DNA of 64,000 bases from Octopus vulgaris (taxonomy: Eukaryota), in NCBI GenBank assembly GCA_951406725.2, contig OX597814.1, positions 1,736,001 to 1,800,000 of the forward strand. Reading direction: 5' to 3'. Both the position numbers and the translations under genes were made by a program. Within the stretch, counting starts at the first letter, position 1, and the number at the start of each line of letters is the position of its first letter. Positions 13,840-51,167 of this stretch are shown here, piece after piece. The notes under the pieces are model-generated. The model saw only the letters and a program-made list of their open reading frames with translations. It was not told the DNA's origin and searched no databases.

Positions 13840-14113
13840 GTACATTATTTACATTATTTACATTATTTACATTTGACAGATATTTATCCTCATCTTGTTT
13901 GATGTTAACAAAACGTTTCGGCTGATGTACTCTCCAGCTTTCATCAGGTGTATTGGGGGAAATTTCGAAATTGGGTTCTCATTCCTAAGGTATTTTTCGA
14001 TGTTGTTGTTGTTATTGTTATTATTATTATTATTATTATTATTCGGGTCACTAGATCGAACTCAGAATCTTGGGGTTAGTAGGACGCGTTCTTAACCACT
14101 ACGCCATATGCCC
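13840..14113 (-). mobile_element. tRNA-headed SINE with HHR-like 3' region (HHR 13908-13951)
   Basis: Minus strand: A box TGGCGTAGTGG, B box GAGTTCGATC, (AAT/AAC)n spacer, then ACAC-CTGATGA-A-AGCTG..CAGCC-GAAA-CG-TT-TTGT and a (aataatgta)n tail. Confidence 0.75.
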
Positions 14114-14116
14114 GTG

Positions 14117-14233
14117 AGGTGGAAGGTGTATCAGCCGAAACTTGTTAACAACAAACATGATGAGGATAAATATCCGTCAAATGTAAATAATGTAAATAAT
14201 GTACATAATTCGTCATCTCTTAAAGACAGACTG
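14117..14233 (+). mobile_element. Inverted partial copy of the 3' end of the HHR-SINE, directly upstream of its head
   Basis: atcagccgaaac..tgttaacaacaaaca.gatgaggataaatatccgtcaaatgtaaataatgtaaataatgtac mirrors 13840-13935. Confidence 0.8.
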
Positions 14234-23299: not shown

Positions 23300-24047
23300 A
23301 CATATATATATATATATATAAAGAGAGAGAGGGAGAGAGCCTGAGATTGCTTGGAGATACGTGACACGTTATAAAAATCTGCCTCGCCATGTGTCTCATA
23401 TCGTCATACTGTATACATCAAATATTTATCTCTCACTGGATGGTGTAGTCTTTTTATTGAATGAATCGACCCTAATGCTTACTTTTTAAAGCTTGGTACT
23501 TATTATGTTGGCCTCTTTTGTTAAACTGCTAGGTTATGCGGAGGTAAGCACTAATACAAACACAAGGACACACAGACATATATATATATATATATATATA
23601 TACGAATTGTACAGCCATGAAACGATCGTAGTGTTTTACTCTTTATCTTTTATTAAACTTTTAATACTTTTGATATATATTTAAAATAATATAAATTAAT
23701 TAATTTTATGTATTGGCTTATGTTTTTCATTGTTTGATTTGCCTAATAGTGGTTTTATCTCATTGCCTCTTATCGACGTATGGTAAGTACCGATCTTCGA
23801 TGAAGGATTCCCTCTACAAACAACATATATAAGGTTTTTCACAGTAACCACTGTCACTGATGTAGAAACTAGTCCAAACAAACAAGGACACTGAGATGGT
23901 GTCAGTCCTTCTGGTGACGTTGGTCGCCTGGGGCTAAAAGCATCAGTAACACCCCCACCACCCCGCCCTGTCCCTAGCCACATTCAGATGGCTGATCCCC
24001 CTTACGTTGTCGAGCAGTTACTGTTTATATCTCGTTCAGAGGTTTAT

Positions 24048-24095
<48 letters not shown>

Positions 24096-24400: not shown

Positions 24401-24477
<77 letters not shown>

Positions 24478-24544
24478 TACTATGCAAATATTCTTTTAAA
24501 ATACTTTTCATTTAACTTTTTCAAAATTTAATTGTTTTCCATAC

Positions 24545-24586
24545 TTACAGTTGAAAAAGTCTCAATGACCGAAAACGGTACTGAAT
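24545..24586 (+). ncRNA. Degenerate minimal hammerhead-like motif in a ~155-bp TA-flanked island
   Basis: CAG-TTGAAAA-aGTCtcaatGACc-GAAA-aCGG-TA-CTG. Confidence 0.55.
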
Positions 24587-24632
24587 TGTCTTTTATAAAA
24601 TTAATTTAGCATTTTCTACCTTGACTTTTTTT

Positions 24633-24689
<57 letters not shown>

Positions 24690-34205: not shown

Positions 34206-34800
34206 GAATCCTTGCAAGAAGGATTTGCACCATAGTCCGAAAAAAGGGTCTAAGATTGCAAGAACTTAAAAACGTACCCCAGGACAGGCACTGCCTCACT
34301 CAACTCATAAATGAAGGAATTAAACGTACGAAATCGATTGATATTAAAACATTAAGAAAAGCCAAACACAACAACGGACCAACTTAAAACACTAACTTAT
34401 GTCTCCACAGACAACCCCAGGAACAAAAAAGCACGTAATATCATCGTCCAAAATCTCCCAATATTCCATAAGGGCCCCAAACATCAGGAAATTCTACATA
34501 ACCATAAAATCATTAAGAGCAGCAAGCAACCTAAGACATCAAAGAAGATCTCCACAAATGCCAAAATAAAAGACTTACCCCTTCTTTTGTAAGATATATG
34601 CCAGAACAAAATACAGACCGAAAATTAAATTACAGATTTACCTCCCCTTTACTGCAAAATAAATGACTAAACAATTGTCTCACCTAGTAATAAATCTTCT
34701 CCCAAGTAATGTCTATTTGTCAACCCTTAGCTGGATGAGCAATGCGAAACCGGTTCTTTATGTTGGAAAAACAAAATCTTATTTTGTACAAAATTGCATT
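34206..34800 (+). mobile_element. Decayed Penelope-like element fragment with HHR-like motif at 34721-34765
   Basis: KIIKSSKQPKTSKKISTNAK (~34507-34566) resembles the PLE RT-endonuclease linker; CTGgATGA-GCaatGC-GAAA-CCGG-TT with partial stem I caac..ag/ct..gttg. Confidence 0.65.
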
Positions 34801-43240: not shown

Positions 43241-43286
<46 letters not shown>

Positions 43287-43523
43287 GAAATGAAGAAAAT
43301 GCTGACAAATAATTGAAGTAATTTAAGTAATTTAATTAGGTGAAAGTTCTTTTTACCGGTTGCGCATTTGTTATGCTTATCAAAATATATTTTGATAAGC
43401 ATAACAAATGCGCAACCGTAAAAAGAACTTTCACCTAATTAAATTACTTAAATTACTTCAATTATTTGTCAGCATTTTCTTCATTTCCTTTTTTATATAT
43501 CACCACTCGTGTTCGACATCTCC

Positions 43524-43571
<48 letters not shown>

Positions 43572-48415: not shown

Positions 48416-50391
48416 GCACACAGAGATAAGTATAGATACACAGAGACCAGTAGAAATGTAGATAGATATTTCTTGGCTCGTAAACGTGTATATTTCTTCA
48501 TTGGCGGCAAGGAGAATTTAAGGTTTAAGGAAGTGATAGCTTTCAGACAGTAAGTTCAATGGAGCGGAAGCCACTGCAGTAGAAGTTGAAGAGTGAGAAG
48601 GAGGGGACATGACTTTGTGGTGGGGAAGATGTTGAGGAGTTTTCGGTGGCAAGTGACTCACTTGTCTGGTGAATTGTCTCCATACTTTATTATGTGGGCT
48701 TAAATTCCATCGATTTCGACTTTGCCTTTTATCCTTTCGGGATCGATAAAATAAGAACCAATTGAGCAGTGAGATCAATGTAATCGATAAGTTTCCTTCC
48801 TTCAAATTCCAGACCTTGTGTCCATAGCAGAACGGGTTATGCGTGTTTGAAATAGCTTTCTAGAATGTTCTTTTACATAGTGGAGCACCAGTTATCACCA
48901 CCCTTGTAAACAAATATTGATATCTTAAATTTTTTAGAAAAGGAGCATTGTGCTGTCGTGGAGTTTATATCTTTAATCCGGGATGAGACGGCTGGGCGCT
49001 GACATTGCAAATTGGCTATTCGGCCTATTTTAAAAACAGTGTTTTTTGGTACTGGATGCAAACACGAGCAACACACGCGCGCACAGAAATATACGCATAC
49101 AGATAGAGAGAGAAGAGAGAGAGAGAGAGAGAGGAGAGAGAGAAGAGAGAGAAGAGAGAGAAGAGAGAGAAGAGAGAGAAGAGAGAGAAGAGAGAGAGAG
49201 AGAGATTACGATTTAATAATTGGACGTGATTGACTTCATACAAGTAGAGAAATATGCTCTCTTTCACATATACACACGCACGCGCACGCGTACACACGCG
49301 CGCGCACGGAAGCACACGCACACGCGCACGCACAGATGTAGATGGAGAAAGAGAGAGAACGAACGAGTGAAACATTAAAACGTCTTATGTCAAATAAGTC
49401 AGCATCGAATGAACGACGCGAAGTAAGCGGCGTGAAAACAGCTGCGCTACAGAGTCGTCTCATACCCGTTTCTCACATCCCCCGGGTGCATTTTTCAAGC
49501 GAAAGCCGTCAACAGTCACAGCCAACCATAAGCTAAAACATTACAACTAAAAATTCCATACAACAAATGATGGCAGATGACAGAAAAGTTTAAAGTGCTG
49601 GTCTATTTAGTGATGTCAGCGGTCTCGACTTCGTCATGTATTCCTACGCGGTCCACATAATATGTTCGACGTGTATAGCGAAGCTTATTCGTTCAGCAAT
49701 ATCTACTTCGTTTGCAGCTTTAGTGACTGCGTTATTAATCAATCAATACCTCACAACAGTCAGTACAGGTGGCGCTTTCATTTGTTAGTGAAATTTCAAT
49801 AGAATTGTTTACACTATATCAGGTGCCGGTAACAATGTGCTGTCTAATCTTGATTTATGTATAATAGATAATTACTGTTTTATCTTTGTTAAATGTTAAA
49901 TTAGTTAAAATAAAGTCACTAAGAACTAAAATGTAGTAAGCAATATTAGCGATGATTTATGGCGGACATTTTGTGGTGTGTCATGGAGCTTCGAATAAAA
50001 TAACTCATGATATTCAGGTTCTTATTTCGAATCCAGAAGAGATCAAGTACTTTCCTTTCATTTACCCCAGATAAGTTTTAATGCCATAGCTTTGTGACAC
50101 ATAGGGTCATGTATAGTGCAAATTAGAAGCAGTGATTCTCAAGCTTTTTAATATCCGGGTCAGATCCAAAACCTGGATGTTTTTAGAGGTGCAGCACCCT
50201 AATGTAAAAGTTAAAACACAAGTAAATTAAAGAAAAATTTGAATGGCTGTGTGGTAAGTTGCTTGCTTACCAACCACATATTTTCGGGTTCATTCCCACT
50301 GCGTGGCACCTTAGGCAAGTGTCTTCTACTATAGCCTCGGGCCAACCAAAGCCTTGTGAGTGGATTTGGTAGACAGAAACTGAAAAAAGAG

Positions 50392-50769
50392 GGACAGAAA
50401 TTCAAGATCAAATCTAATTTCACTTGTGCCTCTGAAAACATAATTTATGTCATAAAATGCTCGGGCTGCCACCAAGACTACGTGGGATCCACGGGACTAT
50501 CACTCAGACGTAGATGCACACTGCATCGACAACAGATTGCATTCCCAGAATACAGAATGATACCCTTTAGTGAGCACATTGAGAAATGCGCAAAGCAACT
50601 ACTACCACAATTTTTAATCTTTCCATTTTACCAATGTGCTATCGGATCATCAACACAAATTAGACTAAACAAGGAAACATTCTTCATTGAAAAGTACAAG
50701 CCCAGACTTAACCATTCCAACATACTTATACAGAGAAATTCACTCCAAAGGAAACACAAAAAATTTTAA
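50392..50769 (+). mobile_element. Penelope-like element GIY-YIG endonuclease domain (5'-truncated ORF end)
   Basis: FTCASENIIYVIKCSGCHQDYVGSTG.SLRRR..LH..FSEH..RLNKETFFIEKYKPRLN: IIY/YVG, catalytic R, E and N, and the PLE CxxC..H..H motif. Confidence 0.92.
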
Positions 50770-50851
50770 GCGATTATCTCCCTTACACCGGAAGAAATCA
50801 CTTATTACCTTCCCTTATTTGGAACTCTTTTCAACATAAACATAACGATGC

Positions 50852-50891
50852 AAGAAATTTGAAAAGCTGAACGCGAAACCGGTCATTTCTT
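50852..50891 (+). ncRNA. Minimal type-I hammerhead ribozyme motif in the PLE 3' pseudo-LTR
   Basis: AAGAAAT-TTGAAAA-GCtgaacGC-GAAA-CCGG-TC-ATTTCTT: 7-bp stem I, U3-A8 core, palindromic stem III, GUC triplet; ~80 bp after the GIY-YIG stop. Confidence 0.8.
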
Positions 50892-51050
50892 CTAAACTAT
50901 GTCATTGTAAGAAAAAAATTTATAACATTCTTCAGACATATTGACTCAAATATATTTTTTTAAGCTTTTAAAACATGCCTTTTGTAGTTTTTTCACTTTT
51001 TACTATTTTCTATATATTCAACCACGTGCTTTCACAAACCAACTTTCTCA

Positions 51051-51167
<117 letters not shown>

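What the first reader, a model, noticed from the sequence alone, without database searches (positions are those of the whole stretch)
50852..50891. Recurrent compensatory U3-A8 pair in three unrelated hammerhead motifs
Seen: cores TTGAAAA (50859), TTGAAAA (24551) and TTGATAA (43392) each replace both C3 and G8, in families with different stems. Established: positions 3 and 8 form a Watson-Crick pair in the active fold and U3-A8 is a tolerated variant. Inference: the paired double change argues for functional ribozymes in the source elements. The 50852 copy looks intact and lies just downstream of the GIY-YIG ORF. Independent C>T and G>A decay in AT-rich DNA is the alternative.
Basis: partly seen in the sequence, partly recalled or inferred. 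Interest (0 to 1): 0.7.

Follow-up and report, generated by a model that had tools for sequence, protein, structure and literature searches.

The report
Inherited U-A hammerhead in Penelope transposons
The three motifs are real hammerhead-ribozyme sequences in the ends of three related families of Penelope-type jumping genes, which likely inherited the U-A core swap once from a common ancestor; the swap is already published, so this is a new example of a known thing.

Summary
Each is the normal state of a repeat family with hundreds of copies, so copy-by-copy decay is refuted: U3-A8 in 98 and 95 of the first 100 listed F1 and F2 copies, no C3-G8. The same genome holds about 20,700 matches with C3-G8 and a shorter palindrome.

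The families are not unrelated. They are the end repeats of one clade of Neptune-like Penelope elements (about 50-63% protein identity, clade support 100/99). Seven sampled outside relatives carry C3-G8; three carry U3-A8. One inherited change is likelier than three independent ones.

Only the 50852 copy is intact; it is predicted to fold as a dimeric hammerhead, but it sits alone in a 5'-truncated copy. Cleavage is not shown. Lineages with U3-G8, and F3 with A13C and a broken stem I (1,877 near-identical copies), also spread.

U3-A8 in such elements was published in 2014, with the same UUGAAAA and UUGAUAA cores. This scan has reported it before on other DNA.

The parts
50852..50891 (+). F1 minimal type I hammerhead: stem I 50852-58/50885-91, core 50859-65 (U3 50859, A8 50864), 2-bp stem II, GAAA 50875-78, CCGG palindrome 50879-82, predicted cleavage after C17 (50884)
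   Evidence: dimer minimum-energy fold is the double hammerhead, -13.3 kcal/mol; monomer hammerhead fold +3.5
50386..51051 (+). 5'-truncated copy of Penelope-like family F1: endonuclease C-terminus, end repeat (pLTR), tail of about 40 nt (about 51010-51051), then (TC)n(TA)n
   Evidence: 89-92% identity to longer family members from 50386; ends read; tail seen in many family copies
50335..50769 (+). stop-to-stop frame; codons from 50386 on encode the GIY-YIG domain, no RT
24546..24585 (+). F2 hammerhead motif, core 24551-57; this copy has C>A at 24575 in the CCGG palindrome
24470..24637 (+). solo 3' end of the F2 end repeat between (TA)n tracts
43392..43420 (+). F3 motif, + arm: TTGATAA core, 4-bp stem II, GCAA (A13C), CCG (one G lost)
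43354..43383 (-). F3 motif, - arm: same core with intact CCGG
   Evidence: G000:C1:1779356-1779382
43283..43529 (.). F3 insertion: two inverted end-repeat 3' ends forming a hairpin of about 215 nt, tail on the right arm only, (TA)n on both sides
34210..34565 (+). F4 ORF fragment (RT thumb/linker region), 69-71% DNA identity to F1
13912..13947 (-). minimal hammerhead with canonical C3-G8 core and CG palindrome, from another very abundant family (internal control)

Best explanation
The motifs are minimal type I hammerheads in the end repeats of three families of one Penelope-like retrotransposon clade, whose ancestor likely switched the core pair from C3-G8 to U3-A8 once, and whose RNA is predicted to self-cleave only weakly, as a dimer joined through the CCGG palindrome. 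Shown: family membership, the clade, the haplotype counts, and stem I arms that match within but not between families. Inferred: selection on the hammerhead fold kept the core and palindrome while stems, loops and 3' spacing diverged; position 8 has since moved between A and G against a fixed U3 in some lineages. The window copies are truncated fossils: 50852 is intact but has no partner nearby, 24551 and 43392 are damaged, so none is likely to cleave where it sits.
For: Haplotypes with 3 and 8 left free: F1 98 UA, 2 GA, 0 CG/UG/CA of the first 100 of 868 listed; F2 95 UA, 1 UG, 4 other, 0 CG/CA of the first 100 of 749; F3 99 of 100 A8 and U3 in all 48 aligned rows with a letter there, some duplicated. 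Decay control: CG-palindrome hammerheads stay C3-G8 (20,717 v. control 1,228) and their UA form is near background (3,271 v. 2,901). Clade: RT-endonuclease identity F1-F3 50%, F1-F2a 55%, F2a-F3 63%; own-genome families form one clade at 100/99, 100/100, 100/99. Seven close outside loci (L226, L228, L231-234, L236) have C3-G8, five of them with the same CCGG. Stem I arms of 12 loci pair 4.1 bp on average with their own partner and 1.2 with others' (6 of 12 v. 10 of 132 reach 4 bp). Dimer fold. A 359-nt retrozyme family in the same genome has amplified U3-A8 and C3-G8 subfamilies on one tree. Literature: PMC4209133, PMC3088659.
Against: No cleavage data. Position 8 needs 2-3 changes within the clade: F4, sister to F1, is U3-G8 in 19 of 24 copies, F1b/F1c are U3-G8, and in the endonuclease-only tree a U3-G8 copy (L356) branches first with weak support (80/80), so A8 may have been gained more than once. 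One outside UA locus (L311) has an unsettled position (sister to the clade plus its CG relatives, elsewhere), so the switch may be older than the clade. The F1 pattern excluded the F1b/F1c loop variants, and the genome-wide UG pattern excluded F4 (7-nt stem-loop II), so UG is undercounted. F3 lacks A13 and stem I. Several of the 12 loci in the stem I test are near relatives (two are the same family), so they are not independent. In a lizard Penelope-like element, hammerhead mutants did not affect insertion in vitro (PMC11167929).
Confidence: 0.78

Rival explanations
1. Cleavage is no longer under selection in this clade: the motif is kept mainly as an RNA-RNA pairing or protein-binding site (CCGG palindrome, stem II), and the U3-A8 core is an attenuated or vestigial state.
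For: F3 (A13C in 98 of the first 100 of 1,877, none with A13) is the youngest family (0.2% mismatch among best hits v. 2.9% and 4.2%) and keeps CCGG. U3-G8 subfamily F1b has a copy with an open 775-aa frame and two copies 97% identical; 59 of the first 100 UG hits are F1b/F1c. One base at the stem I junction is missing in 7 of 38 F1 rows that reach it. PMC11167929: mutants insert normally in vitro; no RNA-seq reads ended at the site.
Against: U4, G5, A6, A9, G12, A14, A15.1 and U16.1 are kept across families about 50% apart in protein (partly by construction of the search pattern), and stem I covaries. No sampled Penelope family has the non-pairing C3-A8 as its norm. The F3 divergence figure comes from best hits and is biased low.
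Confidence: 0.3
2. One reading: three independent compensatory double changes in unrelated families.
For: Across Penelope-like elements at large U3-A8 has recurred: L240, L287 and L311 carry it and a single UA clade is rejected (AU p 5e-39); Schistosoma has it too (PMC4209133). Position 8 changes more than once inside the clade.
Against: The three families are one clade and position 3 needs one change.
Confidence: 0.07
3. Independent C>T and G>A decay in AT-rich DNA.
For: The genome is AT-rich; single changes do occur in copies (UG and CA hits of F1/F2 type).
Against: 0 C3-G8 among the 200 listed F1 and F2 copies; 20,717 canonical matches persist in the same genome, one inside the window.
Confidence: 0.02

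Closest known systems
U3-A8 minimal hammerheads in pLTRs of Schistosoma mansoni Cercyon Penelope-like elements (Cervera & De la Pena 2014, PMC4209133; read parts 1-2 of 4 of the text and passages of one supplement; one supplement file could not be searched)
   Same: Type I minimal hammerhead in the pLTR, U3-A8 covariation (about 1,300 hits there), palindromic positions 15.2-16.2, mostly solo truncated copies and opposite-strand pairs; the supplement lists UUGAUAAA and UUGAAAAA cores.
   Different: Different host and clade; here a 4-nt CCGG palindrome and stems II as short as 2 bp; U3-A8 marks a whole sampled clade; U3-G8 and A13C families amplified.
Natural U3-A8 hammerheads (Perreault et al. 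2011, PMC3088659; passages seen)
   Same: Same covariation, stated there to be active in vitro (citing Przybilski & Hammann 2007, which was not held).
   Different: Rare variants of full hammerheads, not retrotransposon end repeats.
Neptune/Nematis-type Penelope-like elements (Craig et al. 2021, bioRxiv 10.1101/2021.04.23.441226; passages seen)
   Same: RT then C-terminal GIY-YIG with CCHH, CX2-5CxxC linker, (TA)n targets, inverted 5'-truncated copies, one-sided 30-40 bp tail.
   Different: Neptune versus Nematis not separated here; no labelled references were available.
PAc Poseidon element hammerhead of Anolis (Frangieh et al. 2024, PMC11167929; passages and second half of the main text seen)
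   Same: pLTR hammerhead, tail signature, AT-rich targets.
   Different: Canonical C3-G8; cleavage there needed the element's protein and was not needed for insertion in vitro.
Animal non-LTR retrozymes (PMC7229834, passages; bioRxiv 10.64898/2026.07.22.740005, part 1 of 5)
   Same: A 359-nt tandem family in this genome shares the CCGG loop and has U3-A8 subfamilies.
   Different: The three motifs of the finding are in ORF-bearing elements, not tandem non-coding repeats.

Membership tests
Minimal type I hammerhead (PLE type) | Core N3 UGA N N8 A ... GAAA ... UH with a Watson-Crick 3-8 pair | tested here: met
   F1 and F2 families
Minimal type I hammerhead (PLE type) | A13 in the GAAA box, family F3 | tested here: not met
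   C13 in 98, T13 in 2, A13 in 0 of 100 listed; F3 is a hammerhead-derived motif, not filed as an intact member
Minimal type I hammerhead (PLE type) | Stem I closing the core | tested here: met
   F1 7 bp, F2 3 bp plus further pairs after a mismatch; F3 only 2 bp, not met for F3
Minimal type I hammerhead (PLE type) | Palindromic loop III allowing a dimeric helix III | tested here: met
   CCGG; F1 dimer fold. Damaged in the window's 24551 copy and 43392 + arm. The F2 dimer's minimum-energy fold is an alternative register
Minimal type I hammerhead (PLE type) | Self-cleavage after position 17 | not testable with these tools
   Needs a bench assay; only contig-level runs were offered
Rfam hammerhead families | Score above a gathering threshold | tested here: not met
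   0 hits in the window, including for the canonical C3-G8 minimal motif at 13912-13947
Penelope-like element, EN+ C-terminal | Single ORF, RT followed by GIY-YIG | tested here: met
   Open frames of 775 aa (L154) and 736 aa (L152); close homologues hit RVT_1 and GIY-YIG. The window copies are truncated
Penelope-like element, EN+ C-terminal | Inverted truncated copies and one-sided tail | tested here: met
   13 of 30 unbiased F1 loci have an inverted copy upstream within 1.5 kb; tails
Neptune/Nematis clades | CX2-5CxxC linker and CCHH motif | tested here: met
   CX4CxxC linker plus CxxC and two His in F1, F2, F3 translations
Neptune clade specifically | Groups with named Neptune elements in an RT tree | not tested
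   No labelled Neptune or Nematis sequences were returned by the tools

The most novel reading that the evidence does not exclude
This clade is a natural series in which the pLTR hammerhead has stopped working as a ribozyme in some lineages (U3-G8; A13C with no stem I) while they kept transposing and kept the CCGG palindrome. The element would then need the motif for RNA dimerisation or protein binding, not cleavage, which would answer the open question of what these hammerheads do.
Probability: 0.22. Interest if true: 0.55.

Novelty: new member of a known kind. Interest (0 to 1): 0.24.

Why it matters
The variant itself is ordinary. What is useful is the allelic series in one genome: U3-A8, U3-G8 and A13C element families with known relationships and ages, next to canonical C3-G8 families. 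Craig et al. 2021 state that hammerhead function in these elements is still unclear; this series gives matched natural constructs to test whether cleavage is needed. Practically, hammerhead surveys that fix C3-G8 miss over 11,000 motifs here.

Tried and rejected
Rfam scan: no hit. Whole-window repeat search was swamped by microsatellites. One search timed out. First retrozyme tree was discarded because unmasked flanks grouped rows by truncation; it was redone on 70 of 83 trimmed monomers. Expression: no RNA holder listed on record and only contigs were offered, so RNA ends at the cleavage site could not be examined; no variant at 50859 or 50864 appeared in the 40 rows shown, 29 rows were not shown, and I draw nothing from it. 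Monomer folding gives no signal (z +0.75 and +0.32), as expected of a dimer-only motif. Heterodimer folds share the CCGG helix but were not full hammerheads except F1 with F1b. 26 of the first 100 CA hits are one repeat with no stem II, probably not a hammerhead. One F2-type copy with C3-G8 appears (C5:30322882); one such copy is about what chance double mutation would give (rough estimate). Of 20 further loci fetched only 3 had 90 or more aligned ORF residues; 2 were used. Papers not held: Lunse et al. 2016/2017 on PLE hammerhead variants, Przybilski & Hammann 2007, Nelson & Uhlenbeck 2008; they may already cover U3-G8 or A13C, so I do not claim these are unpublished. Searches 'hammerhead A13C', 'hammerhead C3U G8A' gave 0 papers, 'hammerhead ribozyme octopus' nothing relevant.

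Full report
Setting. The window is G000:C1:1736001-1800000 of a 2.8-Gb, 227-contig genome, AT-rich and full of microsatellites. The nearest named homologue of the element protein is from Argonauta, then bivalves, so the host is probably a cephalopod (inference).

Observation. The three cores are at the stated places. The 50852-50891 motif has a 7-bp stem I, a 2-bp stem II, GAAA, a CCGG palindrome and UC. It was the best hit of my descriptor in the window and no hit as good arose in 20 shuffled windows. Its hammerhead fold is unfavourable as a monomer (+3.5 kcal/mol), but the minimum-energy structure of two copies is exactly the double hammerhead (-13.3). The other two are not intact. At 24551 the palindrome carries a C>A change that is rare in the family. 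At 43392 the box reads GCAA, the + arm lacks one G, stem I has two pairs, and the motif sits at the centre of a long hairpin made of two inverted copies.

Not decay. Each motif belongs to a large family. With positions 3 and 8 left free, F1 gave 868 matches (first 100 listed: 98 UA, 2 GA) and F2 749 (95 UA, 1 UG, 4 other). F3 gave 1,877 (99 of 100 A8; position 3 not displayed), with U3 in all 48 aligned rows that have a letter there. Controls were 0. A general CCGG-type pattern gave 11,401 UA, 363 UG, 285 CA and 174 CG (controls 56, 33, 44, 27). The mirror case settles it: minimal hammerheads with a 2-nt CG palindrome number 20,717 with C3-G8 (control 1,228) and are near background with U3-A8 (3,271 v. 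2,901). One lies in the window at 13912-13947. These counts are exact-match counts conditional on the patterns; UG is undercounted because F4's stem-loop is shorter than the pattern allowed.

Not unrelated. Longer copies link each motif to an RT-GIY-YIG ORF ending about 90, 600-650 and 730 nt upstream, with the CX4CxxC linker and CCHH residues of Neptune/Nematis-type elements (features from Craig et al.). Identities are 50-63% between well-preserved representatives (41-45% to one degraded F2 copy), and the own-genome families form one clade against named bivalve proteins and against loci from other animals caught in metagenomes and bacterial bins. Seven close outside loci carry C3-G8, five with the same CCGG; eight others gave no usable motif. 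Position 3 needs one change. U3-A8 does recur elsewhere among Penelope-like elements (L240, L287, L311; single clade rejected), so 'recurrent' is true of the superfamily but not of these three.

Position 8 is less tidy. A fourth family, present in the window at 34732, is U3-G8 in 19 of 24 copies and is sister to F1. Subfamilies F1b and F1c, 87-92% identical to F1 in protein, are U3-G8 too and make up 59 of the first 100 UG hits. The trees need 2-3 changes at position 8. A8 at the root with later A>G changes is the simplest reading, but repeated gains of A8 from a U-G wobble are not excluded.

Does it work? For: the core and palindrome persist while stems, loops and spacing differ, and stem I arms pair within families far better than between them (4.1 v. 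1.2 bp; 12 loci, not all independent). U3-A8 is described as active in vitro (PMC3088659). A 359-nt retrozyme family in the same genome has U3-A8 subfamilies at its base, and a nested clade (100/100) split into C3-A8 (9 monomers) and C3-G8 (23), one change at position 8 (I chose the loci by variant, so these are not frequencies). Against: the non-pairing C3-A8 subfamily also spread, in tandem. F1b has an open 775-aa frame with U3-G8. F3, with no A13 and almost no stem I, has the least divergent copies (best hits only). That A13 matters for catalysis is recalled and implied by the consensus used in PMC3088659; the mutational papers were not held. Published minimal hammerheads cleave weakly even as dimers (PMC4209133), and in one element cleavage needed the protein and was not needed for insertion (PMC11167929). 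I conclude that the clade's ancestral motif was likely a working, weak, dimer-dependent ribozyme and that selection on cleavage is now uneven. The 50852 copy is a 666-nt 5'-truncated insertion without RT and has no intact same-strand partner in the window.

Known or new. U3-A8 in Penelope-element hammerheads was reported in 2014 with about 1,300 hits in Schistosoma, and its supplement lists the same two cores. It was the only paper holding 'U3-A8' in the library searched. Earlier notes of this scan describe the same variant in other genomes and the retrozyme family in this genome; I saw them after my own analyses.

Noticed in passing
window 34732-34755 (+); L312-L336: Fourth CCGG-type motif, from an old family (10.7% mismatch among copies) whose core is U3-G8; sister to F1.
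   Followed up: yes
window 13912-13947 (-): Canonical C3-G8 minimal hammerhead from a family that dominates 20,717 genome-wide matches; an inverted partial copy lies near 14130-14190. Its ORF was not identified.
   Followed up: partly
window 23883-24051; L124-L150, L158, L159, L186-L225: Fragment (no hammerhead) of a 359-nt tandem retrozyme family; its tree runs from U3-A8 to a clade with C3-A8 and C3-G8 subfamilies, a return to the canonical pair. Already noted by this scan.
   Followed up: yes
L154, L155, L169 (G000:C1:90096300-90101800 and others): U3-G8 subfamily of F1 that also lacks one base at the stem I junction; one copy has an open 775-aa ORF.
   Followed up: partly
L061-L090: Many F3 insertions are short hairpins whose inversion point lies a few bases 5' of the core, with different centres, suggesting a hotspot for truncation and inversion; my query favoured such copies. 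In F1, 8 of 30 unbiased loci also break within 36 nt upstream of the core.
   Followed up: no
L025 / L180: A different GIY-YIG domain without the CCHH pattern (possibly Hydra-type, recalled from Craig et al.) beside an F1 copy.
   Followed up: no
L306-L311: Animal Penelope-like elements sit on short contigs of bacterial genome bins, probably host contamination.
   Followed up: no
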